Shown here: positions 3,344 to 58,848 of the stretch, piece by piece
Layout of the letters: each line of letters begins with the position of its first letter
Position numbering within the stretch: position 1 is the stretch's first letter
NCBI GenBank assembly: GCA_963719495.1
Contig: CAVRCI010000003.1
Span: 32,001 to 96,000 of the forward strand
DNA: 64,000 nucleotides
From: an uncultured Verrucomicrobiae bacterium
Lineage (GTDB): Bacteria > Verrucomicrobiota > Verrucomicrobiia > Chthoniobacterales > JAATET01
Direction: 5' to 3'
Notes under the pieces: generated by a model
The model's database searches: none
What the model was told of the DNA's origin: nothing
Seen by the model: only the letters and a program-made list of their open reading frames with translations
Position numbers and translations under genes: made by a program

Positions 3344-3355
3344 TCTACGCGTAAA
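3344..3355. promoter_or_regulatory. Palindromic regulator site TCTACGCGTAAA upstream of the left TPR operon
   Basis: Matches the 12-bp consensus; extended -10 TGcTAGGGT at 3306-3298 on the minus strand. Confidence 0.8.
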
Positions 3356-3379
3356 CAGCTGGCCGGTCCGTCGGGCGGA

Positions 3380-4576
3380 TCAGCCCGGGATCCAGAACGT
3401 TTCCTGCGTTCTCAGCGGGCGGGGCTCCCCGGCGACCTGGAGCGTAATGGTGGCGGCGGGAGAGTCGGGCAGCGGGTCGGACAATCCGCGGAGGAACAGA
3501 CGTTCGCCGCACTGCTCGAACTCGACCGGTTCGCCGGTCGCCTGCCAGCGGGCGCTCAACACTTCGTTGCCGATCTCGGCGAGGCAAAATTCGTCACCCG
3601 GGCAGCGGATCAGATGCACGAAAACCTGCCGACCCTTCGTGGTGATCAGCGCGCTGTTGTTCCACGAGAACGGCGAGCGATCCGAATCCGCCAGAATGTC
3701 GTGATGCCGCCGGACCCAGCGCCCGGCCTCTTCGATGATGCGGACACTTGCCTCCGGGATGCGTCCGTCGCCGCGCGGCCCGACGTTGAGCAGCAAATTC
3801 CCGGCGCTGCCCGCGGTGGTGAGAAGCATTCGGACGACGTCGGCGGGCGTCTTCCAGTTCGTGTCGCCGACGTGCCAGCCCCAGTTATCGTTCAGCGTCA
3901 TGCACGCCTCCCACGGGCCCTGCTTCGCGCTGAGCGACTGCTCGGAGCAGCGAAAATCGAACGGCTCACCGTTGCGTTCGTTGATCAGGATGCCGGGCTG
4001 GAGTTCCTTCGCCAGCCGGTTGGTGTCGCCCCCGTCGCGGAGGGCCGGAATCCCGCCGTCGTACCAGAGAACGTCGATCCGGCCGTAGTTCGTCATGAGC
4101 TCGCGCATCTGCGCCTGCACAAACGAGGCAAAGCCCCGCCGCGCGTCCTCCGAAGCCCACTCATCCGTCCAGTCCCTCGCGTAGGGCGTCGGATAGTCGG
4201 CGTGAAACCAATCCGCGACGGAGTAGTAAAATCCCACGCGCAGCCCCTCGGCCCGCACCGCCTCGACAAACGGTCGCAGCAGGTCGCGACATGCGCCGAT
4301 CTTCGCCGACTGAAAATCCGTCGTCGCCGTGTCCCAGAGACAAAACCCATCGTGATGCCGCGTCGTGAGAACGACGTATTTCATACCGCCCCGCTTCGCC
4401 AAGCGCGCCCATTCAGCAGGATCGTAATTCTCCGCGGTGAACGCCGCGGCGTAACGGTCCCGGTATTCCTCGAAGGGAATGCACTCGCGATTGGCGACCC
4501 ATTCACCCCGCCCGGCAACCGAGTAGGGCCCCCAATGCACAAAAAGACCGTAGCGCGCCGCCGAGAACCATTCCAT
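3380..4576 (-). CDS. Alpha-L-fucosidase (GH29), no signal peptide
   Basis: WF...YGLFVHWG, YVVLTTRHHDGFCLW, LWYDG, WEACMT and GNLLLNVGP motifs. Confidence 0.93.
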   Translation of the reverse strand: MEWFSAARYGLFVHWGPYSVAGRGEWVANRECIPFEEYRDRYAAAFTAENYDPAEWARLAKRGGMKYVVLTTRHHDGFCLWDTATTDFQSAKIGACRDLLRPFVEAVRAEGLRVGFYYSVADWFHADYPTPYARDWTDEWASEDARRGFASFVQAQMRELMTNYGRIDVLWYDGGIPALRDGGDTNRLAKELQPGILINERNGEPFDFRCSEQSLSAKQGPWEACMTLNDNWGWHVGDTNWKTPADVVRMLLTTAGSAGNLLLNVGPRGDGRIPEASVRIIEEAGRWVRRHHDILADSDRSPFSWNNSALITTKGRQVFVHLIRCPGDEFCLAEIGNEVLSARWQATGEPVEFEQCGERLFLRGLSDPLPDSPAATITLQVAGEPRPLRTQETFWIPG

Positions 4577-4631
4577 GCGCCAGACCTAGCAAAGTCGGCG
4601 GCTTCGACCAGCGTGGAGACGATTGGAAGCG

Positions 4632-4643
4632 TTTACGCGTAAA
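4632..4643. promoter_or_regulatory. Perfect palindrome TTTACGCGTAAA upstream of the GH29 gene
   Basis: Exact palindrome 56 bp upstream of ATG 4576. Confidence 0.85.
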
Positions 4644-4760
4644 TTTCTCCAAGGCGTTTCATCGACCGCGCCCCACGGCTTCCGCCTCGTCGTTCATCTG
4701 TTGAGCCCATCTTTGTTCTTCGGGAATTTCCAGCCGAGCCGAGCGGTATTCCAAACCACT

Positions 4761-5693
4761 CTAGATCTCCGGGCGCAAAATCTCGTTATCTGCATATCGC
4801 GGATCCTTCAACAGAGACTGCAGGCATTCCTCCGCTCGCGGCGAAGGATGGCAGGAAATCGCGGTAAGCGCCTCACTTTGGGCCGTATCCAAAGACTCGA
4901 ACGGACCGCCCTCCGGTCTGTCCATCAGTCGACTAATTGCGCTCGGCATCGATCGACCATCCCAATAGTCGAAGGACGCTCGCTCGATGAGAAAATCCAA
5001 AGATTCTGGAGTGCCCTGCCAAGACGCGACGCGATACGCGAAACTTTGGTTGTTCATCCGGTTCCGATCAGCCGGTCCGCTCGCTCGTTCGAAAGACTCA
5101 ATCATTTCCACCAAACGAGGGAGATCATCTGGATTCTACCTCCCCGCCGCGATGGCACCAATCGCAATGAACGCCGAATGCATTAAACGTGGACTCAACG
5201 CATCCGGTTGCTGAACGATGGCGAGCAATGCGGAAAGCGTGGTTTCGTCCGAGGCTAATATGTAGTAAGCTGGATGCTGTCTTCTGCAACGGCGAGAGGT
5301 ATCTCCTGTTTCAGATATTTCAGAATCCACGGAATGACTTCCGAAGAATGGCGGGTGTTCTCGAAATATGCCAGAGGCTGAATTCAAAATGATGATTTTT
5401 CATTTCCGGTCACATCCGTGCCGGGAGGTTCCGTGCATGGCGGTTCGCCGACGTCGCTCCCCACCACTAAGTGATACGCGGTGCAGATGTGGGTCAGCGC
5501 CAAATGGCACTGCTTTGAGCGGATTTTCGGGAAAACGGTCGTGAGACATCTGCTGGTTGGGCTCGAGCCCAGGCTAATATCATTTGATCCTACCGGGCAG
5601 CGGCGAGCGTTGTGCATAAAACGAGAACGGTCGACGATCTGCTTAAAGCAGTGCCATTCGGGTCAGGAGGAGGGAAAGAAGCGGGATTCGCAT
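4761..5693 (-). pseudogene. Decayed gene for a secreted helical protein, broken by a MITE, a frameshift and an in-frame TAG
   Basis: Removing 5499-5662 plus one TSD copy restores MRIPLLSLLLTHICTAY...; ORFs 5136..5387 and 4761..5114 are in the same frame, separated by a single TAG; visibly lower GC. Confidence 0.6.
5499..5662. mobile_element. MITE family 1, copy 1
   Basis: TIRs AATGGCACTGCTTTGAGC (5503-5520) and GCTTAAAGCAGTGCCATT (5641-5658); flanks TCAGC/TCAGG. Confidence 0.75.
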
Positions 5694-5848
5694 CACGTAT
5701 CCCGTTTTTATCGGGAGCGTCATGGCTCGGATAGTTTTCGATGTGTTTGCGCGTATCGTGACTCGCCGAGAAGGTCGGTTACGACGATTCAATGATCGGC
5801 GCGAAAGGGATCGGGGAGACGAAGGTCGGTCGGAAACGTCCCGCAGAA

Positions 5849-5860
5849 TTTACGCGTAAA
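5849..5860. promoter_or_regulatory. Perfect palindrome TTTACGCGTAAA upstream of the ABC operon
   Basis: Exact palindrome; -10-like TAACCT at 5904-5909. Confidence 0.85.
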
Positions 5861-5923
5861 AGCAGCGCAGGCACCGAGGGAATGGCTTCTCCTCCCTGGT
5901 CTGGTAACCTGCCCGTTTCCCCG

Positions 5924-8698
5924 ATGCCACGCCCACAGATTCGCCCTCGATTCCCGCTTCTCCACTGCCTGATCGCGGCGGCGATGCTCGTGGTGCCGGG
6001 CCTCACGGGAACCCGAGCGGCTGAATCCGACGGCGCGAATCGAGCGGACGAGGACAAAGCGACCATTCGCGTCACCGGCTACACGCCGTGGGCTTGGAAC
6101 GCCCTCACCCGCGCCCGGCGCTCGGCCCTTCAGGATTGGCTGGCCACCGAGCGCGATCCGGTGACGGGCGAACTCTGGGGCGACCTCATCAAGCTCGCGC
6201 CCGACAACCAGCTCAGCTTCCCGGGATTCAGCCTCAAGCTCCTCAACTTTGCCGCCGGCACGGGCGAGGAGGTCATCACGACGCCGGACGTCGGCGTGCA
6301 GGATTTTTTTCGCTACCGCGACCAGCGGTTCCTCCTGCCACTCAATCCCTTCATCTGGGAGATCCGCGCGGACGAGGCCGGCAAGCCGCTGCGGGCAAAG
6401 GACGGGAGCTGGGACTACGTCCTCGATGCCCGCGGCGAACGCGTGGTGGTCTGGCCCGACTGGGAAAAGGTCCCCGCGGCCTTCCGGGACATCGTCACGA
6501 ACGACGGCGACGTCTTCGGCCTCCCGATCCAGCGCACGGGGGTGGGACTCATGTATCGACGCGACATGTTCGAGCGGGCCGGGCTCGACCCCGATGCTCC
6601 GCCGCGTGATTGGGATGAGCTGTTCGACGTGGCCCTGCGTATCTCCGCGACTGGCGAAGGAGAGTCTCGCCGGTATGGCCTCATGTTGGCCGGCGATTTC
6701 GTGGAACTTCACACCCTCGGCGGCGGCGGAGAGAGCGCCCGGGTCGAGGAATACCCGGACGGCGCGACTCGCTGGGTCGCGGACTTCGCCTCGCCCGAAC
6801 GCCTCGCCGCGCTGCGCTTCGTCCGCCGTTGCACGCTCACGAAATGGATCGTGACGCCGGACGGCACGCCGCTGATCGTCTGGGAGCCGGATCGCGAGAC
6901 GCAGCCAGTGGTCGAGCATCCTTCCCTCGGAATCGGTCGTTGGGAGGGTGAACCCGGTCGCTCTGGAAGCCAGATCATTTTCCCCGACGCGGCCTACGGA
7001 CCCGCCCAGATCCGCACCGGCGTCGCCTTTAATCAATTGGGCGGATACGGCGTCGGCAACGACGACAAGTGGTACAACCTCTTCGCCGAACCGGAGGGCC
7101 GGCTGGCGATGAGCGTGCAGACGCCGGCGGCCATGATTCAGCAGCTGCAGGCCCTCGACCCCACGCAGGTCGGGTTCGGTCCAATCCCCCGCGGAAAGGC
7201 GGGTGCATTCATCCGCGCCGAGGGGCAGATCGGATCGCTGAACTACGTGCTGGCCGACAATCCCGAGCGGGCCCGGCTGTCCTGGGCCGTGCTCAGTTTC
7301 CTGGCCAGTCGCACTTACGAACGCCTCGCGGTCCATTCCTACGTGCGGGAGGGAGAAGGCGTGGCCGACACCCTCGACCCACGGCTACTCGTCGAGGAAG
7401 GTTACGAGACCATCACCGAGCAGATGTCGCCTTCCATGAAGGCCTATTGGGAGGGACTCGAGTCGTCGACGAAAGCGCCCATAGTGGCGCGGAATTTCCA
7501 GACCTTGTCCGACCAATACCTCCAGCCGATCTACCGGCGCGCGTCGCTGGAGCCAGACTACGACTACCTCACGGCCATCACCGGGGCGGAGGAGCAAGTG
7601 CAGAAGCGGCTGGATTTCCAGATGGGCGATTATCAGCGCGTCGAGGGGCGGGGCTGGATCATCACGGCGATCGTCGTCATTTTCGGCGCCGTCATCATTT
7701 TCAGCTGGGTCGCGTTCCGCTCGCTCTCCCAGCGCTACGACACTTCCAGTCAACGACCCGCGAAACGAAGCCGCGCGGACCGACGCCGAGCCCTCACGGC
7801 CTACTCCCTGCTGGCTCCGGGGATGATCCTCATCCTGGTCTTCAGCTACTACCCGATCCTCATTTCGCTGCCAATCGCGTTCCAGGATTACTACGTGGTC
7901 GGTGAAAGCGAGTGGATCGGTATCGCCAACTTCGTCGAGGTCTTCAGCAATCCGGTGACGTGGATCTCGCTCGCAAAAGCATTCTATTACCTGGGGCTCA
8001 CGGCCGCGGTCGGCTTCCTGGCCCCGGTGGTGCTCGCAATTCTGTTGAGCGAAACGTTCTCCATGCGCTACCTGCTGCGCACCATCTACTACCTGCCCGC
8101 CGTGGTCGCCGGGATTGTCATGCTGCTCATGTGGCGCCGGTTCTTCGAAGCGACCCCGGAAGGAATGGTCAACCGGCTCGTCATGCCGCTGATGGAACTC
8201 TGGAACAAAGTCGCGCCCGGCATCCGGTGGGACATCGCCGTCGAGCCCGTCGATTGGCTGCATCACCCGATCCTGGGCATTCCCAGCATCGTCTTCGTCG
8301 GCATCTGGGGCGGGATGGGACCCGGGATGCTGATTTATCTCGCGGCGCTCAAGAGCGTGCCGGAGGAACTCTACGAAGCGGCGGAACTCGATGGGGCCGG
8401 CTGGTGGGCGCGCTTCAGCCAGATTACCCTCTCTTATCTCCGTCCGCTTCTCGTGATCAACTTTGTCGGAGCGGTCATCGGAGCCTTCCAAGCTTCGGGA
8501 AACATTCTGGCGCTCTCCGGGAATTTCCCGGCGACCTACACCTTCGCGGTGCACATTTGGTTCGAGGCCTTCGGGCTCGGGCAATTCGGTGTCGGCACGG
8601 CTCTTTCGTGGGTGATGGCCAGTCTGCTGGTCGGCTTCACCGTCTGGCAGCTCCGGATCCTTCGCGACGTCGAATTCAAAAAAGCGGGAGCAGACTGA
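5924..8698 (+). CDS. Carbohydrate ABC transporter: substrate-binding protein fused to a MalF-like permease
   Basis: Signal peptide from ATG 5924; SBP motif LMYRRDMFERAGLDP...P.DWDEL; C-terminal TMs with the EAA loop ELYEAAELDGA. Confidence 0.9.
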   Translation: MPRPQIRPRFPLLHCLIAAAMLVVPGLTGTRAAESDGANRADEDKATIRVTGYTPWAWNALTRARRSALQDWLATERDPVTGELWGDLIKLAPDNQLSFPGFSLKLLNFAAGTGEEVITTPDVGVQDFFRYRDQRFLLPLNPFIWEIRADEAGKPLRAKDGSWDYVLDARGERVVVWPDWEKVPAAFRDIVTNDGDVFGLPIQRTGVGLMYRRDMFERAGLDPDAPPRDWDELFDVALRISATGEGESRRYGLMLAGDFVELHTLGGGGESARVEEYPDGATRWVADFASPERLAALRFVRRCTLTKWIVTPDGTPLIVWEPDRETQPVVEHPSLGIGRWEGEPGRSGSQIIFPDAAYGPAQIRTGVAFNQLGGYGVGNDDKWYNLFAEPEGRLAMSVQTPAAMIQQLQALDPTQVGFGPIPRGKAGAFIRAEGQIGSLNYVLADNPERARLSWAVLSFLASRTYERLAVHSYVREGEGVADTLDPRLLVEEGYETITEQMSPSMKAYWEGLESSTKAPIVARNFQTLSDQYLQPIYRRASLEPDYDYLTAITGAEEQVQKRLDFQMGDYQRVEGRGWIITAIVVIFGAVIIFSWVAFRSLSQRYDTSSQRPAKRSRADRRRALTAYSLLAPGMILILVFSYYPILISLPIAFQDYYVVGESEWIGIANFVEVFSNPVTWISLAKAFYYLGLTAAVGFLAPVVLAILLSETFSMRYLLRTIYYLPAVVAGIVMLLMWRRFFEATPEGMVNRLVMPLMELWNKVAPGIRWDIAVEPVDWLHHPILGIPSIVFVGIWGGMGPGMLIYLAALKSVPEELYEAAELDGAGWWARFSQITLSYLRPLLVINFVGAVIGAFQASGNILALSGNFPATYTFAVHIWFEAFGLGQFGVGTALSWVMASLLVGFTVWQLRILRDVEFKKAGAD

Positions 8699-12187: not shown

Positions 12188-12202
12188 CCCGCCCCCTTCC
12201 CG

Positions 12203-12286
12203 GTCCCGGAGGGACATCCGGATTTTAGCCGGTGGCGCGAGCCACCGGGTTCCACGTCATCAACGCACGCGCCCCGAATGGGGCGC
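12203..12286. repeat. Triple-hairpin REP-like element
   Basis: GTCCCggaGGGAC, CCGGTGGCgcgaGCCACCGG and GCGCCCCgaatGGGGCGC in series between convergent genes. Confidence 0.6.
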
Positions 12287-12550: not shown

Positions 12551-14281
12551 TTACGCCGGACTGACGATCGTCTCCAGCACGTGCCTTCCAGGCGGCAAGA
12601 TCGTGGTGAGGATCGGAACATCGGTGAATCGATGGATGAGGTTGCCGCCCCTCGGCGATTCCTGCACGGACGGGACCCGCCGATCACGAAATTCCATCCG
12701 GCTCGTCAGCCCCCCACCGGAAAGTACGATTTGCGTCGGTGAAATCTCATGTTCCCCCCGCGGACAGGGAAATCCCCCTTCCAGCACCTCCGTCTCCCGC
12801 TCGAGTTCCAGAACGTGCCGGGCCGCGTAGCCGGTTCCGCTCGGAGTCAACGTGGTCTCCACGTGCGACCACGGTGCCGGTCGCCATTCGATCCGCGCGG
12901 AATGCCCATCAATGCTCGCGCTCAGGGGGCGCTCGCGACCGATCCAGGCGGTCTCATCGGTCGCGCGAAGGATCAGCGCCAGATCGACCGGGGGCATCCC
13001 GTCGCAGCCCAGTAGTTCGAAGCCGTGCCTCGTGCCGTACGCAAATCGCCCGTAACGGCTGTCGGCACGTCCCATCCAAGCGGGCCCGTATTGCCCCGCC
13101 ATCAGCAACAGTGGTTCGTCGGGGGTGCCAGCGAGCACTCCTCCAAATTCCAGAAAAGGAATCGCCGAGTTTCTCGTCGCCGCGGGCGCAGCCCCCGCGG
13201 ACCAGAATGGATGCGTTGCGGGTTGGCCCAGTGCGAGTAGCGACTTGAGGCACCAGTAGGGCGACGTCTCGGCGATGTACAGCTCCGCGACATTTTCGTT
13301 CGGGTAGGTGCAACCCAGCCCCAGGCATCCGTCGTCCCGGCGAACGGGTCGTGCATGCCACCAACGCCGCTGACGCCGCCACAGCCCGGCGATCACCGGC
13401 CACGGAAGGGCCTCGCAATCGACGAGCGCCAAGGTCGCCCAAGCGGCATTCCAGACTTCGCGGTAGCACAGACTGCGACCCCACAGGATCGGCGCGCCAT
13501 CGGCGGCGGCGAAGTGTTGGAAATTGGCGGCGAAAGCGACCGACCGGGCGAGTAGTGCGCGTGCCCGTTCCGGCTGTCTGGGCGCGAGCATCTCCGCGGC
13601 AATCGGACCGTAGCAATGGAACGCCGCGGGAAGGTAAAGGTCCGCCGAGCGGGTGCCGGGATCGCAACCATCGAAATACCAGCCGTCTCCCGAGTACATC
13701 GCGTCGAGGGCATCGAGGTCCTCCTCGATCCGCGTCCACGAACCCGAACCGACCAGCGCGTCGAGCGCAAGATTCACGAGCACCCGGAACCACAGCCAGT
13801 TGTTCGGATGGACTCGGCGATGGTTGATTTGATCCAGCCAATCAACCGCCCTCTGGCGCTCCCCCGGCGAAAGCGGCTCCCACATTTCCCTCCGCGCCCA
13901 CAGCAGCGCCATCGCGACGGCGGGCATCTCACAAAATCCCTGGCAAAGATCTTCGCACGGCCCCCAAAAGTCCGGGTGATCGGGATCCGTGCCGGCGATC
14001 AGACCCGCCCGCCACCGGCTCCACATCCGCCCATCAAGCCGCGCCCCGTCGCCGGCTCGCGCCAGCGCGGCCATCGCCCACAGCGGACGGGCGTAACCCT
14101 GGAATGCATCCCACACCGGCTCGTAAAACGCTCGCGGCGGCCCAATCACGATCCGCGCGCCCGACGGAGTCATGTGTGGAACGAGCGCCCAAAGCTCTTC
14201 GTTCAACCGCGCAATCGCGGCGTCCCGGCGTCGTTCGCCCGCCGCCCCCTCAACCACGAAACCCGCCCCGCGTGCGCACAC
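12551..14281 (-). CDS. DUF2264 family protein (putative glycoside hydrolase); start uncertain
   Basis: GYARPLW, AGTDP.HPDFWG, NNWLWFRVLV, Y.GDGWYFDG, GRSLCYR and SPYWCLK motifs. Confidence 0.85.
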   Translation of the reverse strand: MCARGAGFVVEGAAGERRRDAAIARLNEELWALVPHMTPSGARIVIGPPRAFYEPVWDAFQGYARPLWAMAALARAGDGARLDGRMWSRWRAGLIAGTDPDHPDFWGPCEDLCQGFCEMPAVAMALLWARREMWEPLSPGERQRAVDWLDQINHRRVHPNNWLWFRVLVNLALDALVGSGSWTRIEEDLDALDAMYSGDGWYFDGCDPGTRSADLYLPAAFHCYGPIAAEMLAPRQPERARALLARSVAFAANFQHFAAADGAPILWGRSLCYREVWNAAWATLALVDCEALPWPVIAGLWRRQRRWWHARPVRRDDGCLGLGCTYPNENVAELYIAETSPYWCLKSLLALGQPATHPFWSAGAAPAATRNSAIPFLEFGGVLAGTPDEPLLLMAGQYGPAWMGRADSRYGRFAYGTRHGFELLGCDGMPPVDLALILRATDETAWIGRERPLSASIDGHSARIEWRPAPWSHVETTLTPSGTGYAARHVLELERETEVLEGGFPCPRGEHEISPTQIVLSGGGLTSRMEFRDRRVPSVQESPRGGNLIHRFTDVPILTTILPPGRHVLETIVSPA

Positions 14282-15695
14282 GCAGATTCCGCAGCAGCAG
14301 ATCGGTGCGCGTCATGCAGCGAATCGCGAACCGCCCGCACGACAGGACCGGGCCGTTATTGTCGTCCGCGCGGTCGGTCGCATCGATCACGACCGTCCCG
14401 TCGATCGCGCACTGGATGCGATCGCCAATCTGTAGGAAATCGAGTCGATGCCACGAACCAATCTCGTAGAGCGGACCGTGCACGCCGAATCCCATCGGGC
14501 GAAGCCACGGATTCTTCAGCATCGCGTGCGAGGCCACGTCGTTCCGCACGTCGTCCATCTCGCGGTAATACTCCCAGTGGTAATTTCGGATATCCTCCCA
14601 GCACACCGGACGCATCACGCCATTTGTCCTTGGTCGGTGGCAGGCCAGAAAATCCTCCCGCTGCATGCCGCTGCACTGCGTCATCAGCAGGCTCAACCCG
14701 CCCCGGCGCAGCGGCTGAAATTCGTAATTGATGTGCAAATCGCCCTCGAACCAATCCCGTGACCACAAATACACGTGGTTCAGATCGAGCACGGAAAAGT
14801 CGTGCAGCGGATCCGCCGGAGGGGTCGTGATCCGCAGGCCGTCCGCCGTGATCCGGGGAGCCTGCACGCAGCCCTGAAGGTGAAAACGGCGCAAATCCTC
14901 CGGGTCAGTCAGCCCCAACGACAACCTCTCCCGCCAATCCGCACCCTCCGGCGACTCGAACGTCGCGCGTCCGCGTCCGAGGTAGGTGCGCTCGAGTTGC
15001 CGCTGCACCGCCGCGTCCGGCTCGGGACATTCCTGCGCGAACAACCGGACCGCACCCGCCTCGTCCAGTTCCTCGTCGTATCCCCGCACCTCGCCCGTCG
15101 CAAACATCGTCGATCCCACGCACAGCATGCCCCCCGGCTCCGGCACGGACAACGGTCCCTCGTGCATCGTGTCGCTGTGCCCCACGAGCACCCCGTTGGC
15201 GAACAACCGGTGTCGATTGGCCGCCGCATCCCACGAATAGGCGAGGTGCACCCATCGACGCGCACGAAATTCCCAGTGGCCCGCCGCCGCGACCGCGTGC
15301 CGTTTCTTGAACGCTTCGTAAACGTAACCCGGCCCCCGCTTCAGGTAGAGGCTCGGCGTCCAAAAACTCGACCACACCAACGCCACGTGCGCCGCCCGAC
15401 TGTCCTTCACCGTCTCCCGGTCGCTGAAAAGCGTGAACTCGTCCGCATCCGGCACCGACAGACTGTGCGTTTCGAGCTTCTGCGCCGGATGCAAGTCCTC
15501 CAGCGCCATCACCCAGATCGTCAGGGTTCCCCGCGGTTCCCCCAGATGATGCGGCCCCAGCACGATCCCGCCAAACACGTCGTCCAGGGTCAATCCCGAA
15601 CGCCCCTCGTGCGTGACCCGCCGCACCCCACCACGACGCACGTCCAACTCATCCTTCGGAATCGACGCCACATCGTAGGTAAATCGCGGAGACAT
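14250..15695 (-). CDS. LamG/ConA-like domain plus DUF1961 (YesU) family protein
   Basis: WVHLAYSWD..RLFANGVLVG (LamG-like); C-terminal NYHWEYYR and GRFAIRCM. Confidence 0.7.
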   Translation of the reverse strand: MSPRFTYDVASIPKDELDVRRGGVRRVTHEGRSGLTLDDVFGGIVLGPHHLGEPRGTLTIWVMALEDLHPAQKLETHSLSVPDADEFTLFSDRETVKDSRAAHVALVWSSFWTPSLYLKRGPGYVYEAFKKRHAVAAAGHWEFRARRWVHLAYSWDAAANRHRLFANGVLVGHSDTMHEGPLSVPEPGGMLCVGSTMFATGEVRGYDEELDEAGAVRLFAQECPEPDAAVQRQLERTYLGRGRATFESPEGADWRERLSLGLTDPEDLRRFHLQGCVQAPRITADGLRITTPPADPLHDFSVLDLNHVYLWSRDWFEGDLHINYEFQPLRRGGLSLLMTQCSGMQREDFLACHRPRTNGVMRPVCWEDIRNYHWEYYREMDDVRNDVASHAMLKNPWLRPMGFGVHGPLYEIGSWHRLDFLQIGDRIQCAIDGTVVIDATDRADDNNGPVLSCGRFAIRCMTRTDLLLRNLRVRTRGGFRG

Positions 15696-15860
15696 GCGCG
15701 CGATCATCGTTCACTCGCCGCGCAAGACAAGATCGAAGCCCCTTTTCGGCAGGTTCAGGGTGTGATTGCGAAAATTGTCGGTCATGCGGCGCGCTGGGTG
15801 AAGAAGTGGGCGCGGAAGGGATTCTGCGCCCTACCTTTGGTGACCGTTTTCGCGGTCACA

Positions 15861-16146
15861 CCCGAATGGCACTGCTTTAAGCGGTTCGTCGGCGGAAAAC
15901 GGGTTACTGGTTCACCGGATGACTTGAGTCCAAACTGGCTTATTTACCCTCGCAGGGCAGTTGCGCGCAGTGTGCAGAAAGTCAGAGATTCTTCGGATTA
16001 CCTCAGAATGACAGCTTGGGGGGACGGGAGACATTCGTTGCGAAGCAACGTCTTCGTCCAAACCTGTCATCCTGAATGCAATGAAGGATCTCTGACTTTT
16101 CAGGACGAGAGCGGTCGAAAACTCGCTTAAAACAGTGCCATTCCGA
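15861..16146. mobile_element. MITE family 1, copy 2, with a nested long hairpin repeat
   Basis: TIRs GAATGGCACTGCTTTAAGCG (15864-15883) and CGCTTAAAACAGTGCCATTC (16124-16143); 5-bp TSD TCACA (15856-15860, 16147-16151); inner inverted repeat 15978-16019 / 16058-16099. Confidence 0.8.
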
Positions 16147-16160
16147 TCACACCCGCAGAT

Positions 16161-17276
16161 TCATCTTCCCACGGATTCACGCCGGATCTGGCCGGGCGTT
16201 TTCCCCGTCACCCTTCGGCACACGTTGTTGAACAACCGGGCGTCGGAAAATCCCGCGCGCTCCGCCAGCGCAAACATCGGCTCCTCGCCATTCACGATTT
16301 CCGGCATGACCGCTTCCAGCTTGGCCCGGCACAATTCCCCGTAGATCGGCAATCCAATCTCGTCCCGAAACAGGCGCTCCAAAGTCCGCCGCCCAATGCC
16401 ACTCCCCAGCGCGACGTCCTCGACCGTCTGGAGTTCCGCCGATTGGGTTCGCATGATCCGCAACGCGGCCGCCACCGCCGGATGCCTCGCCGTGAAACGG
16501 TCGGTCGACCGGCGGGCCACCACGTAGAGCGGAGGAATCTTTTCGGTTTTCCGGGGTGCGGGTTTGCCCCGCAGCAGCCGGGCCAGCAGCCGCGCCGCCT
16601 CGAATCCGAGTGTTGCGTAATCCGGCGCCACGCTCGACAACGCCACCGGCGAAATCAGTGACTCCAGCTCGTCGTCGTCCACGCCGACCACCGCGACATC
16701 GATCGGCACCTGCAGGTTGGTCTGCAAGGTTGCTTCAACCAGCCGCCGCGCACGGTGATCGTTCACCGCCATGATCCCGATGGGTTCCCCCGACGTCGTG
16801 CCCCCCCCAAGGATATCGTCATCCTCGTTGCACAGACGGCAGGAAAAATCCCGGGCCGCGAGAGCCTCCGAGAATCCGGCGAAGCGCTCCCGCCCGAAAA
16901 CCGTGTCGGTCGAACCCACGAACGCAAATCGCCGAAATCCGTGGTCCAGCAGGTGCTTCGCCGCCAGCTCTCCCGCGGCAATGTCGTCGCAAACGATCCG
17001 CGGCACCGGACTTCCCTCCAGTCGATTGGACACGTTGACGGTCGCGCGATAGTGTTGGCCTGCGGCAACCCACTCGTCCGTCGCCAGAAAGCCGATCATC
17101 CCGTCGAGACGAAGGCTGGGGTCTGGCGGGGGTTGCGCCGAATCGGAAGCGTCGATCAGCCACTCGGGTTGCTCCGCAGCAAACTGTCGAATACCTCGCA
17201 AAATTCCCCGGCTGAGCTTGAGCGCAAACGGAAGAAACACTCCGATGTGGAGGGATCGACGCACGGGCTCACTCAC
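16161..17276 (-). CDS. XylR-type transcriptional regulator (periplasmic-binding-protein-like sensor plus AraC HTH)
   Basis: VPIDVAVVGVDDDE...LSSV; C-terminal RRTLERLFR and AERAGFSD...F.RVTGKTP. Confidence 0.92.
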   Translation of the reverse strand: MSEPVRRSLHIGVFLPFALKLSRGILRGIRQFAAEQPEWLIDASDSAQPPPDPSLRLDGMIGFLATDEWVAAGQHYRATVNVSNRLEGSPVPRIVCDDIAAGELAAKHLLDHGFRRFAFVGSTDTVFGRERFAGFSEALAARDFSCRLCNEDDDILGGGTTSGEPIGIMAVNDHRARRLVEATLQTNLQVPIDVAVVGVDDDELESLISPVALSSVAPDYATLGFEAARLLARLLRGKPAPRKTEKIPPLYVVARRSTDRFTARHPAVAAALRIMRTQSAELQTVEDVALGSGIGRRTLERLFRDEIGLPIYGELCRAKLEAVMPEIVNGEEPMFALAERAGFSDARLFNNVCRRVTGKTPGQIRRESVGR

Positions 17277-18705: not shown

Positions 18706-18758
18706 TCTACACGTAAACCTCAAACCCCTTTGCCCTCCCGAGTGCCGATCCCTAGCTT
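18706..18758 (+). promoter_or_regulatory. Site TCTACACGTAAA (18706-18717) plus a sigma70-like promoter
   Basis: TTGCCC(18730)-N17-TAGCTT(18753); ATG at 18766. Confidence 0.8.
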
Positions 18759-21157: not shown

Positions 21158-21210
21158 TCTACACGTATAGCATCCCCGACTTTGCCGGTTCGGGGACGGT
21201 GCGGCACACT
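21158..21210 (+). promoter_or_regulatory. Site TCTACACGTATA (21158-21169) plus promoter
   Basis: TTGCCG(21182)-N17-CACACT(21205); ATG at 21217. Confidence 0.75.
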
Positions 21211-30350: not shown

Positions 30351-30403
30351 AGAATGCACCAGACGATCCCCCGATCAAACCAACGCCGAAATGTACGCGT
30401 AGA
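30351..30403 (-). promoter_or_regulatory. Site TGTACGCGTAGA (30392-30403) plus -10 CATTCT
   Basis: The -10 begins at 30356, 36 bp from the site edge. Confidence 0.75.
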
Positions 30404-31475: not shown

Positions 31476-31528
31476 TTTACACGTAAATATTCAGAGCCCT
31501 TGGTGGGGAGTCCCGGTCGATGCACGGT
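31476..31528 (+). promoter_or_regulatory. Site TTTACACGTAAA (31476-31487) in a divergent intergenic region, plus promoter
   Basis: TTGGTG(31500)-N17-CACGGT(31523). Confidence 0.8.
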
Positions 31529-33158: not shown

Positions 33159-33222
33159 TCTACGCGTAAACCCACCGCCCCACGCTCCCCGCCTTTACGC
33201 GCCCCGCCCGCGCCTCCACGAT
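33159..33222 (+). promoter_or_regulatory. Site TCTACGCGTAAA (33159-33170) plus promoter
   Basis: TTTACG(33194)-N17-CACGAT(33217), 47 bp from the site. Confidence 0.78.
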
Positions 33223-45555: not shown

Positions 45556-45619
45556 AATATACGCACACTCTCCCCGACCCGTGAGGCGAAACGCTCCAAT
45601 CCGATTTTTTACACGTAAA
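45556..45619 (-). promoter_or_regulatory. Site TTTACACGTAAA (45608-45619) plus -10 TATATT for the pilin cassette
   Basis: The -10 begins at 45561, 47 bp from the site. Confidence 0.82.
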
Positions 45620-45670: not shown

Positions 45671-45724
45671 TTTACGGTTAAAACCAAGTGGGCGTTGACG
45701 CCCCCAGCGTCGTTTCCACAGGGT
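45671..45724 (+). promoter_or_regulatory. Degenerate site TTTACGGTTAAA (45671-45682) plus promoter for the dehydrogenase
   Basis: TTGACG at 45695 has the same offset from the site as in three other promoters; CAGGGT at 45719. Confidence 0.6.
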
Positions 45725-47043: not shown

Positions 47044-47095
47044 CGGTCGACGTGAGGAGACCCCGGACCTCGAGCGTCGTCACCTCCGCTTCTAC
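47040..47095. repeat. GTAG...CTAC REP doublet filling a convergent intergenic gap
   Basis: GTAGCGGTCGACGTGAGGAGACCC...CGTCGTCACCTCCGCTTCTAC. Confidence 0.8.
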
Positions 47096-48336: not shown

Positions 48337-48377
48337 GAGTGGAAGCGAACACCGCGCCAATCGCGCGGCTCGCCATT

Positions 48378-51659: not shown

Positions 51660-51668
51660 GATCGGGCA

Positions 51669-51732
51669 ACCATAGAAACCCCCGCCACCCGAGGCAACGG
51701 CCCGGCGGGCAATCCGCATGTTTACGCGTAGA
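51669..51732 (-). promoter_or_regulatory. Site TTTACGCGTAGA (51721-51732) plus promoter
   Basis: TTGCCT(51697)-N17-TATGGT(51674), 47 bp from the site. Confidence 0.85.
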
Positions 51733-51825: not shown

Positions 51826-51867
51826 GAGGGGTCGCCTGAGGGGTCGGTCATTCATTTTGACACATCG
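51826..51867. repeat. Third copy of the GGGGTCGGTCATTCATWTTGACACATCG motif
   Basis: Near-identical to the copies at 12.3 kb. Confidence 0.75.
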
Positions 51868-52001
51868 ATGGGGACTCGGCGGCTCCTGCGAAAGCGCGCG
51901 AACGTCAAATGCGGCGGCGGCGGGCCGATCTGCAACCAAGCCGGGGCTGAGGGTCAAATGCAACGCGGATGGGATGCACGTCGCGGCGACGGGGATCGCG
52001 T

Positions 52002-55757: not shown

Positions 55758-58550
55758 TCAGGGGTTCGAAACGGAGGTGGGCTTTTCCGCGACGGCTGCG
55801 GTGACCGAGTCCCCGCCGCCGGGTTCGCCCGCCAGCCACGCGAAGAGGTTGCGGGCATACTGCGCGTTGTCGTGTTCGGTGATGTCGGTGCCCGCGCCGT
55901 TCGCGTTGAAGAACGTGTTGCGGTCGAAATGGATCGCCACCCGCCCGGCGTCCGCCGTTGCGACGATGAGCGACCCGTCCCGCGCATCGGTCGGGCGGGT
56001 CGTGCCCTGGCATTTCTTCGAGCCCGGCGTGCCATCGTTGTTGCGGGTGTTGCCGGAGGCGGCGGCGAGCCGCGTGATGCTCACCCCGGCGGGCGGCGGG
56101 CCGGCGGGGATGCGCCCCGGCGAGACGCCTTCGCCCATGAAGGTGTCCACGCCGTCGAAGATCGGGTGGTTCGGAACGACGAACCCGCCCTTCGCGAGAT
56201 CGACCGTGTAGAGGCCGAGGTCCTGGTTCACCGCGAGTCCGAAGCGGTCGAGGAATTGCTGATCGGAATCCGGCGCGTCGCACCAGCTCGATCCGAAGTT
56301 CGCATCGGAGATGAACAGCGCCGCGCCACCGCCGCGCACGTAGGCTTCGAGCGCGTCGATCGCGGCGGTGCCGTAGACCGCGTTGTTCGAGGCGAGGACG
56401 ACTGCCGCGTATTCGTCGAGATCGAGCGCGGCGAGGTCGAGCGGCGCGCCGATGGTCTGCCCGGTGCCGGGAGCGCCGGACTCGAGTGGTTCGGCCACTT
56501 GCTCGACGATGAAGCCCTCGCCCTCGAGCAGGACCTTCAGCGCGCCCCAGCCGTGGTTGCCGTTGTTGGTCGCGGTGTTGCCGAGATCGGCGAGTTGCTC
56601 GGTGCGGTCGGCGTCGTTTTTCGCTTCGAGGAAGCCACCGCTGCGGTCCGCGCCGCGGATGAAGAGCAGCTTCTTCGGCGACGAGACCAGGGCGACCCAG
56701 TCGGCGGTCGCGGGCGCCGGGGGGGAGCCGAGCGAGACGCTGCCGCCGCCGGTGACGGTCGTGACGGAGCCGGGCTGGAGCGCGCCGCCATTGCGCGGAT
56801 CGAACCACCTGACGTCGAACGTCCCCGGCTGGTCCGTGAGATCGAGCGACCGCGTCCCGCCCGACGGCAGGAAGACGACGTATTCGCTGCCCTCCTTCGC
56901 GAGGCAGAATCCGTCGTCGATGTTGTCGGCGGCGTTGCCGACGAGATCGTTGCGGTTGTGCATTTCCCAGAAGGGCACGCCATTTTCCGAAAAGAACTCG
57001 AGCGCGTGTCGGCACTGGTCCCACCAAAGGTCGCGGGAGCGAAAATCCTGCAGCGTGAGATCGGATTGCGCGTGCGAATAACCGAAATACCATTCGTTCC
57101 CAGCGCCGCCCGCCATCAGCGTGCCCCAGAGTGCGCGCTTGCGCGGCACGTCGTGCGTCGGATCGTCGGCGTCGGGCACCAGCGCGTGCGAGGCGTCGCC
57201 AGGTTCGTCCACCGCCACGACCCACGGTTTGCCGACGGTGGCGGACTTGTCGATCCACTCCTTCGTCCAGCCAAAGACTTTGGCAAAATTTTTCGAGTTG
57301 GTCTGGATCGACACACCGGTGAGTTCGGACGCGGTCCCGAGCATGGGCGTGTAGATCGCGCTTTGCTCGCCGGGGTAGGTGTGGATCACGATCGGGTGGC
57401 CATACGGATCGTGGTCGCGAAAATACTGCGCCATCGCCTTCCGCTGGGCGTCGGTCTGGTCCTTGCTCTCCTCGCCGAGGTTCCAGTTCAGCGCGAGGTG
57501 GTGGGCGAAGCGGGCGATCAGCTCGCGGTAGTAGAGCTTGCGCTGCGTGCCGACGCCACCGCCGTCGAGGAGCGTCTCGTTCTCGGTCTCCTGCGTCTTG
57601 AAATGCAGATACATCCCTCGCGCGTCGGCGTGCGTGAAGACCACCTCCCACTGGTCGAGCCGCGACACGTCCAGTCGCACCCGCTCGCCGTAGGCGGTGT
57701 AGGGGAAAACGTTTTTGTCGTCGCCGTCGATGTTCATGGTGAGGAACGAGAAGGCGTTCAACCCTTCGTCCGCGAGGTAGTTGATCGCGCCGATCAGCCC
57801 CTTGCCCCGGCCGTTCCGCCACGTCGGGTCGCCGGGCTGCCAGTCCGCAACGTGAGGCCCCCACGTCTTGATCTTGTCGTCGGCCCGGCCGTCGCTCTTG
57901 AAGTCGCCGTCGAAGTCCGAGTAGGCCAGCAGGTTCTCGGGCGAGTCCGCTCCCTGTTTCAGAAAATACCCGCCCGTCCCGGCCCAGCGCAGGTGGTGCC
58001 CGCCGACGTATTCGAGCAGGCCGCGCGCGCGATTGTCGGGCACGGCCTTGTCGCCCGCGACGACCTCGAACGTGCCGTCGACCTCGCCGTCGGGGTCGCC
58101 ATTCAACGTCGCGGCGCCACCGGGTGCCGCCTCGTCGCTCACCGCCACATCCGTCCCGGTGCTAAACTGCGCCGCGAAATTCCACGTCCCAAGTTCCGGC
58201 GGGGCGAAATGGACGCGCCAGATGTTGCCTGCCGCCGCGCCGGTCTCGCCCGCAGCGCCGTCGGCCGCGTAGTAGCCGGGCACGACGAAACTCCTGCCGC
58301 TGGCCGGATGCGTGAACGTGACATCGAGCCGGTAGTCGAGAAATGGATTGGGCGTCGCGTCCTCGGAGGACGCCGGCCCCTCGAACGCGACCGTCACCCG
58401 GTGCCACTGCCGGAGGTCGCCATGAACGCCGACGGTCGGCGTGCTCGACACAGCCGAAGGTGTGGCCGCGGCGGCCTCGCGCCCGGATTCTGCGGAGGCG
58501 GAAATCCAGAGGCCGAAAAGCAGCGATAGGAAGGGGAGGAGAGCTTTCAC
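55758..58550 (-). CDS. Secreted DUF5060/DUF4038-like putative glycoside hydrolase with collagen-binding-like and glutamine-amidotransferase-like C-terminal domains
   Basis: NPFLDYRL.V.F.H, VPGYYAADG, WNLGEE, VRWFDPRNGG; signal peptide from GTG 58550. Confidence 0.8.
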   Translation of the reverse strand: MKALLPFLSLLFGLWISASAESGREAAAATPSAVSSTPTVGVHGDLRQWHRVTVAFEGPASSEDATPNPFLDYRLDVTFTHPASGRSFVVPGYYAADGAAGETGAAAGNIWRVHFAPPELGTWNFAAQFSTGTDVAVSDEAAPGGAATLNGDPDGEVDGTFEVVAGDKAVPDNRARGLLEYVGGHHLRWAGTGGYFLKQGADSPENLLAYSDFDGDFKSDGRADDKIKTWGPHVADWQPGDPTWRNGRGKGLIGAINYLADEGLNAFSFLTMNIDGDDKNVFPYTAYGERVRLDVSRLDQWEVVFTHADARGMYLHFKTQETENETLLDGGGVGTQRKLYYRELIARFAHHLALNWNLGEESKDQTDAQRKAMAQYFRDHDPYGHPIVIHTYPGEQSAIYTPMLGTASELTGVSIQTNSKNFAKVFGWTKEWIDKSATVGKPWVVAVDEPGDASHALVPDADDPTHDVPRKRALWGTLMAGGAGNEWYFGYSHAQSDLTLQDFRSRDLWWDQCRHALEFFSENGVPFWEMHNRNDLVGNAADNIDDGFCLAKEGSEYVVFLPSGGTRSLDLTDQPGTFDVRWFDPRNGGALQPGSVTTVTGGGSVSLGSPPAPATADWVALVSSPKKLLFIRGADRSGGFLEAKNDADRTEQLADLGNTATNNGNHGWGALKVLLEGEGFIVEQVAEPLESGAPGTGQTIGAPLDLAALDLDEYAAVVLASNNAVYGTAAIDALEAYVRGGGAALFISDANFGSSWCDAPDSDQQFLDRFGLAVNQDLGLYTVDLAKGGFVVPNHPIFDGVDTFMGEGVSPGRIPAGPPPAGVSITRLAAASGNTRNNDGTPGSKKCQGTTRPTDARDGSLIVATADAGRVAIHFDRNTFFNANGAGTDITEHDNAQYARNLFAWLAGEPGGGDSVTAAVAEKPTSVSNP

Positions 58551-58670
58551 CGGATGGAGGGAGGAAGCCAATTCAACGGCTGGCGCGGACAAGGGCCTTC
58601 CGTATCGTCGGTCAACGCCGCAAAGCGCCGACGAAAAGAGGAGTTTTGGAGGGGAGACACCAAGGCACCC

Positions 58671-58732
58671 AGAATATCCGATCAACCTCGAAACGCCAAC
58701 CCGCACCGGGTGGACGAGATTTTACGCGTAGA
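58671..58732 (-). promoter_or_regulatory. Site TTTACGCGTAGA (58721-58732) plus promoter
   Basis: TTGGCG(58699)-N17-TATTCT(58676). Confidence 0.8.
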
Positions 58733-58794
58733 GCCAAACGGTCTTCGTGCGAAAGGCGGAGCCCGCTGCGATCGACCGGTGCATCGAGATGATG

Positions 58795-58848
58795 TTTACG
58801 CATATAACATCCTCTCGATAGCAGGTGCTCGTCTTCCCAAGGTAGGAT
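58795..58848 (+). promoter_or_regulatory. Degenerate site TTTACGCATATA (58795-58806) plus -10 TAGGAT for the TPR-exbBD operon
   Basis: The -10 at 58843 is 37 bp from the site. Confidence 0.65.

What the first reader, a model, noticed from the sequence alone, without database searches (positions are those of the whole stretch)
3344..58806. Thirteen copies of an unassigned 12-bp palindrome TYTACRCGTARA define a locus-wide regulon
Sites start at 3344, 4632, 5849, 18706, 21158, 30392, 31476, 33159, 45608, 45671 (degenerate), 51721, 58721 and 58795 (degenerate). Each lies just upstream of a gene start, and I noticed none inside genes. The divergent regions at 45.6 kb and 58.7 kb carry two sites, one per direction. 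I do not recognise the motif. The xylR-yesU-DUF2264 genes lack it, and AraC-type proteins usually bind direct repeats, so the cognate dimeric factor is probably encoded elsewhere (inference).
Basis: seen in the sequence. Interest (0 to 1): 0.85.

Follow-up and report, generated by a model that had tools for sequence, protein, structure and literature searches.

The report
LacI-type operator of a glycan-degradation regulon
A short DNA palindrome sits in front of about twenty gene groups for complex-sugar breakdown in an uncultured verrucomicrobial bacterium and is likely the docking site of one LacI-type repressor, an ordinary kind of switch that here would also control unusual cell-surface machinery.

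Summary
All 13 sites are at the stated coordinates: 9 exact, 2 with one mismatch, 2 with two. Shuffles gave 0 exact matches. The 9 exact sites are the only ones in the 4.54-Mb genome.

All 13 lie in intergenic DNA upstream of genes, and they are not part of a longer repeat.

The regulon extends beyond this window. A second cluster of 7 sites lies on contig C2 around a LacI-family gene, P0001 (C2:678440-679471). One site sits 17 nt before its ATG and another just after its stop.

In the only genome with a P0001 orthologue (G004, 99% identity) the two loci form one contiguous ~70-kb locus holding 16 of that genome's 20 relaxed-pattern sites. There the core T-n-TAC-nn-GTA-n-A is kept while flanks diverge to 41-75% identity.

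Among 401 genomes of the order, only G000 and G004 show this enrichment; a third, G229, carries the sequence inside a repeat element.

Best reading: the motif is the operator of this autoregulated LacI-type repressor. Its TTAC-NN-GTAA core matches E. coli GntR sites. This is a new member of a known kind, of moderate interest.

The parts
3344..3355 (.). Operator TCTACGCGTAAA, 54 nt upstream of the TPR gene start (503-3289, minus strand)
   Evidence: The G004 counterpart keeps 11/12 positions while the flanks are 64% identical.
4632..4643 (.). Operator TTTACGCGTAAA, 55 nt upstream of the GH29 alpha-L-fucosidase gene (3380-4576, minus strand)
   Evidence: 12/12 conserved in G004; flanks 55%.
5849..5860 (.). 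Operator TTTACGCGTAAA, 21 nt upstream of the ATG (about 5882-5885) of the SBP-permease fusion gene. A second permease (8700-10580) and an unknown gene (10636-12228) follow.
18706..18717 (.). Operator TCTACACGTAAA, about 48 nt upstream of the ATG (about 18766) of a pectate-lyase-fold protein (to 21105)
   Evidence: The G004 site at 269675 has the same 12 letters.
21158..21169 (.). Operator TCTACACGTATA (1 mismatch) upstream of the unknown 645-aa gene (21199-23136) and the 565-aa gene (23034-24731)
   Evidence: G004 has TATACCAGTAAA at the matching place.
30392..30403 (.). Operator TGTACGCGTAGA (1 mismatch), 32 nt upstream of the FHA/DUF4159 gene (28392-30359, minus strand). The FG-GAP gene (25446-28214, minus strand) follows.
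31476..31487 (.). Single operator TTTACACGTAAA in a divergent region between a PEP-CTERM gene (30566-31417, minus strand) and an FAD-dependent oxidoreductase gene (31520-33094, plus strand)
   Evidence: 11/12 conserved in G004; flanks 51%.
33159..33170 (.). Operator TCTACGCGTAAA, 71 nt upstream of the sodium:solute symporter gene (33242-35434). A GH28 gene (36476-38164) lies downstream.
45608..45619 (.). Operator TTTACACGTAAA facing the Verru_Chthon cassette (B 45040-45471, 43931-45043, A 39818-43930, 39186-39812; all minus strand)
45671..45682 (.). Degenerate operator TTTACGGTTAAA facing the GFO/IDH/MocA oxidoreductase gene (likely ATG near 45808, to 47043)
   Evidence: G004 has the better palindrome TATACGCGTATA here.
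51721..51732 (.). Operator TTTACGCGTAGA upstream of the unknown 1113-aa gene (48378-51719, minus strand) and a GH28 gene (47092-48360, minus strand)
   Evidence: 12/12 conserved in G004; synteny with G004 ends exactly at this site.
58721..58732 (.). Operator TTTACGCGTAGA upstream of the DUF5060 gene (55758-58706 at most; likely start near 58550; minus strand) and the PKD/pectate-lyase-fold gene (52002-55745, minus strand)
58795..58806 (.). Degenerate operator TTTACGCATATA, 84 nt upstream of the TPR gene (58891-61779). ExbB (62699-63532) and ExbD (63561-63971) follow.
12551..17276 (-). DUF2264, DUF1961 and XylR-like (periplasmic-binding domain plus AraC HTH) genes. This block has no operator and is not part of the regulon as read here.

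Best explanation
The palindrome T-n-TAC-nn-GTA-n-A is a conserved, promoter-proximal DNA site that is most likely the operator of one LacI-family regulator, P0001. P0001 is encoded outside the window at G000:C2:678440-679471.

Inferred mechanism:
- A P0001 dimer would bind each operator, one half-site (TnTAC) per recognition helix.
- Because the sites lie 17 to about 170 nt before start codons, binding would block transcription of about 13 transcription units in the window and about 7 on C2, including its own gene.
- A sugar released from the target glycan would bind the effector domain and release the repressor.

Shown here: the sites, their confinement to two loci, their conservation, the LacI identity of P0001, and sites flanking its gene.

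Inferred: physical binding, repression rather than activation, and the inducer.

The regulated genes point to a fucose- and uronic-acid-containing plant or algal wall glycan. They include two GH29 fucosidases, two GH28 enzymes, a GH42-like enzyme, several pectate-lyase-fold proteins, ABC and SSF transporters and oxidoreductases. They also include a Verru_Chthon pseudopilin cassette, TPR-ExbB-ExbD genes and PEP-CTERM proteins.
For: 1. Statistics and confinement.
- 9 exact sites against 0 in shuffles, and these are all 9 of the genome's exact sites.
- At PWM score 18 or more: 13 in the window, 7 in C2:678-698 kb, 3 elsewhere. The window sites trained the PWM; the C2 sites did not.

2. Position. 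Every site is intergenic, with its end 17-170 nt before a start codon. Divergent regions carry one or two sites. Ravcheev 2014 (PMC4052901, passages) reports more than 75% of LacI-family sites at 30-140 bp upstream and fewer than 1% in coding DNA.

3. Regulator.
- P0001 has a LacI HTH (PF00356, E 2.6e-13).
- Its AlphaFold model (pLDDT 92.5) matches Lac repressor, CcpA and PurR (Foldseek E 5e-17).
- One site lies 17 nt before its ATG, directly after a TTGACA hexamer. Another lies 30 nt after its stop.
- The same paper reports autoregulation in 72% of LacI-family factors.

4. Co-occurrence.
- Among 41 genomes only G004 has an orthologue (99% identity; next best 40%).
- Among 401 genomes of the order only G000, G004 and G229 exceed 3 exact sites per strand. 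G229's copies sit in a repeat element.

5. Footprint. In G004 the window locus and the LacI locus are one contiguous locus with 16 of that genome's 20 TNTACNNGTANA sites. Across 17 site pairs the motif keeps 8-12 of 12 positions. Flanks are 41-75% identical, except 92% at the LacI promoter. Changes fall at positions 2, 6, 7 and 11. T1, T3, A4, T9, A10 and A12 are invariant in 20 G000 and 16 G004 sites.

6. Recognition code.
- P0001 has P15-M16 and L20 (PurR numbering).
- In Table S1 of Camas 2010 (PMC2978694, supplement file 6) every class with Met at AA-16 has T at NT-4, as here.
- E. coli GntR (K15-M16) has TTACCCGTAA 34 bp upstream of gntK, the same TTAC-NN-GTAA core.
- Only 2 of 17 LacI HTHs in G000 have xM-TVS-L (P0001 and P0002), and both have TTTACnnGTAAA beside their genes.
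- P0002 has no orthologue in G004, which leaves P0001 as the shared candidate.
Against: - No binding or expression data exist.
- G004 is the same genus, so co-occurrence and footprinting rest on a single independent comparison.
- The XylR-like gene of the window is also shared with G004, so co-occurrence does not separate the two candidates.
- The palindrome's centre is G|C or A|C, not the C|G found in 1173 of 1303 LacI-family motifs.
- Camas' PM class is linked to AT, not TT or CT, at NT-5/NT-4. That table also covers TVSR-type helices, whereas P0001 has TVSL.
- Pfam did not detect the effector domain of P0001 at E 1e-4 or better.
- No consistent -35/-10 pattern around the sites was found by eye, so promoter occlusion is not demonstrated.
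- Among 28 paralogues of P0001 (loci L009-L036), only 1 (L013) showed a similar palindrome upstream.
- The paralogue P0002 shares the M16/L20 helix and could cross-bind.
Confidence: 0.7

Rival explanations
1. The XylR-like regulator in the window (16161-17276; periplasmic-binding domain plus AraC-type HTH) binds the palindrome and controls the regulon.
For: It is the only recognisable transcription factor inside the window. It is also present in the syntenic G004 locus. AraC-family proteins with flexible linkers can use inverted half-sites (established knowledge, recalled).
Against: There is no motif near its own operon. The 6-bp half-sites of a tight 12-bp palindrome fit a dimer with one helix-turn-helix per half-site, not the roughly 17-20 bp sites of a two-HTH AraC domain (family knowledge). 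The core matches LacI-type GntR sites and the Met-16 rule. The LacI gene is flanked by sites.
Confidence: 0.07
2. A different LacI paralogue is the main factor, or shares the sites. The leading candidate is P0002 (C4:333796-334827; R15-M16-L20), with P0001 controlling only part of the set.
For: P0002 has the same MTVSLALR helix and its own TTTACGGGTAAA site 46 nt upstream. Some regulon sites have the same GG/CC centre: 45671 and C2:697692.
Against: No P0002 orthologue was found in G004 at E 1e-60 or better (genome 88% complete), yet G004 keeps 16 sites, including GG-centred ones. P0002 lies in neither locus.
Confidence: 0.12
3. The motif is not a transcription-factor operator. It would instead be a repeat element, an RNA hairpin, a methylation or restriction target (its centre is ACGCGT), or a promoter element of an alternative sigma factor.
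For: In genome G229 the same 12-mer occurs 6 times inside a conserved repeat of about 80 nt. This shows that the bare sequence can have other origins.
Against: In G000 nothing beyond about 18 bp is shared between sites. There are no Rfam matches in the window. A methylation target would not be confined to promoters of two loci. Perfect dyad symmetry and use in both orientations do not fit a directional sigma-factor promoter. Conservation is position-specific.
Confidence: 0.04

Closest known systems
E. coli GntR/IdnR (LacI family) and their operators upstream of gntKU and gntT
   Same: Both are palindromic operators with the core TTAC-NN-GTAA. E. coli has GTTACCCGTAAC 34 bp before gntK, with a second site 13 bp away (the 13-bp arrangement is noted in PMC4052901). 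Both proteins have Met at recognition position 16. Both are local sugar-catabolic regulons with sites close to start codons.
   Different: P0001 is only 25% identical to GntR over 203 residues. It scores 24.9-44 bits against GntR models whose cut-offs are 400-433 bits, so it is not an orthologue. The outer bases differ (T-n-TTAC here, TGTTAC in E. coli). The centre is GC/AC here and CC/CG in E. coli. The regulon is about 20 operators over about 80 kb instead of a few operons.
Local LacI-family regulons reconstructed by comparative genomics (RegPrecise; Ravcheev et al. 2014, PMC4052901, passages read)
   Same: It shares the even palindrome, the upstream position, autoregulation, and control of carbohydrate-utilisation genes near the regulator gene.
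   Different: It lacks the central CG pair found in 1173 of 1303 factors; 78 of 1303 are exceptions. The word Verrucomicrobia does not occur in that paper's main text. The targets include pseudopilin-like, TPR/ExbBD and PEP-CTERM genes, which are not typical catabolic targets.
Polysaccharide utilisation loci of Bacteroidota with their regulators (SusR, hybrid two-component systems, ECF sigma/anti-sigma). This comparison is recalled, not tested.
   Same: Both are large co-regulated sets of glycoside hydrolases, transporters and TonB-type energy transduction genes devoted to one glycan.
   Different: No SusC/SusD pair was seen among the proteins scanned. The predicted control is by a cytoplasmic LacI-type repressor through about 20 separate operators, rather than by a membrane sensor.

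Membership tests
LacI-family transcription factor (for P0001, the proposed cognate factor) | N-terminal LacI-type helix-turn-helix | tested here: met
   PF00356, E 2.6e-13, 50 bits against a cut-off of 27, residues 9-54. phmmer hits to LacI-family PDB chains.
LacI-family transcription factor (for P0001, the proposed cognate factor) | Hinge helix with the conserved Leu (PurR position 54) after the HTH | tested here: met
   L60 of P0001 is invariant in the alignment with 6 homologues and E. coli GntR. The model shows helix 55-67. The numbering correspondence is my own alignment by eye.
LacI-family transcription factor (for P0001, the proposed cognate factor) | Two-lobed periplasmic-binding-protein-like effector domain | tested here: met
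   Pfam did not detect it in P0001 at E 1e-4 or better. The AlphaFold model (pLDDT 92.5) matches Lac repressor, CcpA, PurR and RbsR over about 360 columns (E 5e-17 to 1e-13). Homologues at 41-51% identity carry PF13377.
LacI-family operator | Even palindrome of 16-22 nt with a central CG pair | tested here: inconclusive
   It is an even palindrome with a 12-nt strong core and weakly A/T-rich flanks out to about 18 nt. The central step is G|C or A|C, not C|G. Ravcheev 2014 lists 49 factors with a different centre and 29 with a degenerate centre, out of 1303.
LacI-family operator | Upstream, non-coding position and autoregulation of the factor's gene | tested here: met
   All 20 G000 sites are intergenic and 17-170 nt before start codons. 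One site lies 17 nt before the P0001 ATG.
LacI-family operator | Physical binding by the factor and release by an effector | not testable with these tools
   No tool here models protein-DNA binding, and no RNA data were found for this organism.
GntR/IdnR orthologous group of gamma-Proteobacteria | Orthology of the protein | tested here: not met
   25% identity over 203 residues. NCBIfam GntR and IdnR models score 22.6-44.2 bits against cut-offs of 400-500 bits.
REP/MITE-type repeat element | Copies share sequence well beyond the palindrome | tested here: not met
   Flanks of the 13 sites are unrelated. No direct-repeat family of 20 nt or more covers a site. By contrast, G229's copies share about 80 nt.
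AraC/XylR-type binding site | Two roughly 17-20-bp half-sites, usually direct repeats, next to the regulator's own operon | tested here: not met
   The motif is a 12-bp inverted repeat, and none lies near the XylR-like operon. The description of AraC-type sites comes from established knowledge, not from a call.

The most novel reading that the evidence does not exclude
One sugar-sensing LacI repressor switches on a complete SusC/D-independent glycan-foraging apparatus in Verrucomicrobia. The set would comprise secreted beta-helix and GH28/GH29/GH42-like enzymes, a Verru_Chthon pseudopilin cassette, a TPR-ExbB-ExbD motor, PEP-CTERM surface proteins, SBP-permease fusion transporters and periplasmic oxidoreductases. 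The operator would then be the first handle that assigns a physiological role, glycan capture and import, to the enigmatic Verru_Chthon cassette and to PEP-CTERM proteins.
Probability: 0.3. Interest if true: 0.7.

Novelty: new member of a known kind. Interest (0 to 1): 0.45.

Why it matters
Gene regulation in Verrucomicrobia is almost unstudied. The large LacI-family survey read here does not mention the phylum in its main text. A full-text search for the motif strings returned only primers and unrelated constructs.

This operator and regulator pair gives a testable, self-contained regulon of about 20 promoters and about 40 genes in an uncultured lineage. It groups many proteins of unknown function with known glycoside hydrolases. 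These include proteins of 645, 1113, 638 and 477 aa, DUF5060, FHA/DUF4159, the Verru_Chthon cassette, PEP-CTERM proteins and TPR-ExbBD.

That grouping is a guilt-by-association argument that these proteins take part in polysaccharide use. The switch itself, a LacI-type repressor with a palindromic operator, is textbook.

Tried and rejected
1. Independent orthologues with DNA context.
- The genome-contig scan found only G004's MAG.
- The metagenome-contig scan found only 28% and 48% partial relatives.
- The protein database holds an 87%-identical homologue (P0004, on a 15-kb contig) and a 51% one (P0005).

2. Sequencing runs. One run holds 30% of the sampled words of the C2 locus as near-identical short contigs and may be the source sample. 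Two other runs gave only 35-45-nt chance pieces. This yielded no third lineage and no RNA.

3. Palindromes upstream of 28 P0001 paralogues from relatives (loci L009-L036). Only L013 (38% identity) has CTTTACCCGTAAAG. The others have unrelated palindromes or none. There is no family-wide support.

4. G229, the only other genome in the order with 6 sites per strand, proved to carry a repeat element.

5. A search by eye for a fixed -35/-10 register around the sites found none. TTGACA or TTGAAA lies 2 nt upstream of the motif at only 3 promoters (LacI, MAM-domain gene, unknown 1113-aa gene). I also rejected the idea that the gene-proximal half forms the -10 hexamer. The final T is present in only 3 of about 14 gene-oriented sites, by my reading.

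6. C10:114187 and C10:114222 (PWM scores 17.5 and 15.4) are two arms of a different inverted repeat (TTTACGCGGATAA ... TTATCCGCGTAAA) upstream of a NagB-like gene. I do not count them as regulon members. C13:770533 lies beside tRNA-like sequence, and C12:59945 is inside a gene.

7. Functions of unknown regulon proteins. PDB sequence searches gave nothing for the 1113-aa, 982-aa and 645-aa proteins. The 717-aa C2 protein is GH42-like.

8. The Rfam scan of the window found no match.
Full report
**1. The observation**

The pattern TYTACRCGTARA has 9 distinct exact sites in the window (15 strand matches). None of 100 dinucleotide-preserving shuffles gave a match.

The window is G000:C3:32001-96000 of a 4.54-Mb, 16-contig genome. 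A regular-expression scan of all contigs finds 9 exact sites, all in the window. The flanks of the 13 sites share nothing beyond a weak A/T preference. No direct-repeat family of 20 nt or more covers a site. Rfam finds nothing in the window.

**2. Gene context**

The genome is 64% G+C, so long spurious ORFs abound. I called genes by third-position G+C and annotated them with Pfam and NCBIfam. Sites and the genes they precede:

| Site | Gene(s) it precedes |
|---|---|
| 3344 | TPR protein |
| 4632 | GH29 fucosidase |
| 5849 | SBP-permease fusion, second permease, unknown gene |
| 18706 | pectate-lyase-fold protein |
| 21158 | two unknown proteins |
| 30392 | FHA/DUF4159 and FG-GAP proteins |
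| 31476 | PEP-CTERM protein and, divergently, an FAD oxidoreductase |
| 33159 | sodium:solute symporter, with GH28 downstream |
| 45608 | Verru_Chthon cassette (A: TIGR02600, E 3e-270; B: TIGR02598) |
| 45671 | GFO/IDH/MocA oxidoreductase |
| 51721 | unknown 1113-aa protein and GH28 |
| 58721 | DUF5060 protein and a PKD/pectate-lyase-fold protein |
| 58795 | TPR-ExbB-ExbD |

Where the longest ORF overlaps a site, the true start lies downstream of it. This rests on conservation with G004 and on signal-peptide-like N-termini. The end of each motif lies 17 to about 170 nt before the likely start codon. The XylR-like/DUF1961/DUF2264 block has no hit at PWM score 10 or more.

**3. Beyond the window**

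I built a PWM from the 13 sites and scanned the genome. It finds a second cluster on C2: 678411, 679501, 680581, 687628, 690852, 697692 and 697745. At score 18 or more there are 13 sites in the window, 7 in this C2 locus and 3 elsewhere.

The C2 locus encodes the same kinds of proteins:
- a second GH29;
- large pectate-lyase-fold/PKD proteins;
- a GH42-like protein;
- a DegT aminotransferase;
- a MAM/PA14 protein;
- a GH10-like protein.

It also encodes one transcription factor, a 343-aa LacI-family protein, P0001 (C2:678440-679471; PF00356, E 2.6e-13). Site 678411 lies directly after a TTGACA hexamer and ends 17 nt before the P0001 ATG. Site 679501 lies 30 nt after its stop.

**4. Is P0001 a LacI-family protein?**

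Pfam sees only the HTH. The AlphaFold model, built from an alignment of 68 homologues, has mean pLDDT 92.5. Its best structural matches are Lac repressor, CcpA, CelR, RbsR and PurR (Foldseek E 5e-17 to 1e-13, probability 1.00). Homologues at 41-51% identity carry PF13377.

**5. Comparative evidence**

- Among 41 genomes (G000 plus 40 relatives), P0001 has one orthologue, in G004 (99% identity). The next best hits are 40% or lower.
- The species-representative collection gave the same single genome, an uncultured Verrucomicrobiae MAG.
- JGI metagenome contigs gave no close relative.
- Exact motif counts in the 41 genomes are G000 9 forward/6 reverse, G004 5/5, and all others 0-3.
- In 401 genomes of the order, 64 have any match. 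Only G000, G004 and G229 exceed 3 per strand. G229's copies lie in a conserved repeat of about 80 nt.
- G004:C1:250-302.5 kb is syntenic with window positions 1-51732. It then continues directly into the reversed C2 locus, ending with the LacI gene. Nucleotide identity is 74-94%. The two G000 loci are therefore one locus in G004.
- Sixteen of G004's 20 TNTACNNGTANA sites lie in that locus.
- Across 17 aligned site pairs the motif keeps 8-12 of 12 positions. Two of the low values are aligner gaps, and the site letters show better agreement. Flanks are 41-75% identical, except 92% at the LacI promoter.
- Pooled logos of 20 G000 and 16 G004 sites show T1, T3, A4, T9, A10 and A12 invariant. C5 and G8 are nearly invariant. 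Positions 2/11 and 6/7 are variable.

Because G004 is congeneric, this counts as one independent comparison.

**6. Linking motif and factor**

Ravcheev et al. 2014 (PMC4052901; passages) report the following for LacI-family factors:
- even palindromes in 1251 of 1303 factors;
- a central CG in 1173, a different centre in 49 and a degenerate centre in 29;
- autoregulation in 72% of factors.

The present motif fits all of these except the central CG.

Camas et al. 2010 (PMC2978694; section 9 and supplement files 3-6) tabulate recognition residues 15/16 against operator bases NT-5/NT-4. Every class with Met at position 16 has T at NT-4 (KM TT:43, EM TT:6, LM TT:7, PM AT:6, SM AT:9, TM AT:12). With the dyad between motif positions 6 and 7, NT-4 here is the invariant T3. 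P0001 reads S-P-M-T-V-S-L, that is P15, M16, L20.

E. coli GntR (K15, M16; translated from the K-12 record) has ATGTTACCGATAACA and GTTACCCGTAACAT in the gntK upstream region. That is the same TTAC-NN-GTAA core. That these are the GntR operators is stated in general terms in the Ravcheev passage and otherwise recalled. I did not read Tsunedomi 2003 or Peekhaus and Conway 1998.

Of the 17 LacI HTHs in G000, only P0001 and P0002 (C4:333796-334827) have xM-TVS-L. Both have TTTACnnGTAAA next to their genes. P0002 has no orthologue in G004 at E 1e-60 or better, which leaves P0001 as the shared candidate. The exact helix SPMTVSLALRN occurs in 2 of 68 aligned homologues, P0001 and the 87%-identical P0004.

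**7. What weakens the assignment**

- The XylR-like gene is also shared with G004.
- The PM class of Camas is AT, not TT or CT.
- That table covers TVSR-type helices.
- The centre of the palindrome is not CG.
- There is no uniform promoter register.
- Paralogues' upstream regions gave no family-wide pattern.
- There are no binding or RNA data.

**8. Mechanism proposed**

P0001 dimers would occupy about 20 operators close to or over the promoters of glycan-degradation, transport and surface-machinery operons, and of its own gene. They would be released by a sugar derived from the substrate. All of this is inference.

The enzyme set comprises GH29 (two copies), GH28 (two copies), a GH42-like enzyme, pectate-lyase-fold proteins and DUF5060. 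It suggests a fucosylated, uronic-acid-containing wall polysaccharide. The ligand is unknown.

**9. Novelty**

A full-text search for the motif strings returned 36 papers. The 15 listed are primers or unrelated constructs. The kind of system is textbook, while the motif, the factor and the regulon membership are new. I class it as a new member of a known kind.

Earlier scan notes on this same stretch (e1-9906499, e1-9995982; titles only) also describe the pilin cassette, ExbBD and CAZymes as lying under one operator.

Noticed in passing
window 4644-5848: A 1.2-kb stretch of low G+C (54.5% against 64%) lies between the two perfect operators at 4632 and 5849. G004 has only about 240 bp and a single operator here, serving both divergent genes. 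The insert holds a 35-42-nt element with copies on C7, C2 and C6.
   Followed up: partly
window 51721-51732 / G004:C1:302447-302458: Synteny between G000 and G004 ends exactly at the last base of this operator. In G004 the C2-type locus follows; in G000 the 52-64 kb segment follows. This points to a rearrangement next to an operator. The G004 homologue of the DUF5060 gene (69% nucleotide identity, on contig C7) has no TNTACNNGTANA site on that contig.
   Followed up: partly
window 24664-25602: A tandem repeat of four copies with a 213-bp period (82-100% identity) lies between the 565-aa gene and the end of the FG-GAP gene.
   Followed up: no
window 12323-12406 and 51835-51876: A 42-nt element (GAGGGGTCGGTCATTCATATTGACACATCG core) is duplicated in tandem after the 10636-12228 gene. 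A third copy (79% identity) lies in the intergenic region upstream of operator 51721.
   Followed up: no
window 38473-38555 and 38723-38805: Two copies (87% identity) of an 83-nt element end in an inverted repeat (CCCGATAAAATG...CATTTTATTGGG). They lie in the gap between GH28 and the Verru_Chthon cassette and look REP-like.
   Followed up: no
window 5885-8698 and 8700-10580: Two unusually long ABC permease proteins. The first (937 aa) combines a solute-binding-protein segment (SBP_bac_1) with a BPD_transp_1 permease domain. The second (626 aa) has a 420-aa N-terminal extension.
   Followed up: no
L005 (G000:C10:114187-114233): Two inverted arms (TTTACGCGGATAA and TTATCCGCGTAAA, 35 bp apart) lie upstream of a NagB-like/PIG-L gene pair at a contig end. 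They resemble half of the motif but look like a different operator.
   Followed up: partly
L048-L053 (G229, six contigs): A dispersed repeat element of about 80 nt has TCTACGCGTAGA at its centre (…CCTGGCGGCCGGTGCCGGTACCAGAGTA-TCTACGCGTAGA-TCTTCAAGAG…).
   Followed up: partly
G004:C1:267219-268317: The G004 orthologue of the XylR-like gene matches in two overlapping pieces (67% and 84% identity). This could be a frameshift or an alignment artefact.
   Followed up: no
L055 (G000:C4:333796-336515): A second LacI paralogue, P0002 (RMTVSLALR helix), has its own TTTACGGGTAAA site. It is divergent from a BNR_4 gene followed by a di-haem oxidoreductase fragment. This is probably a separate small regulon with a near-identical operator.
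   Followed up: partly
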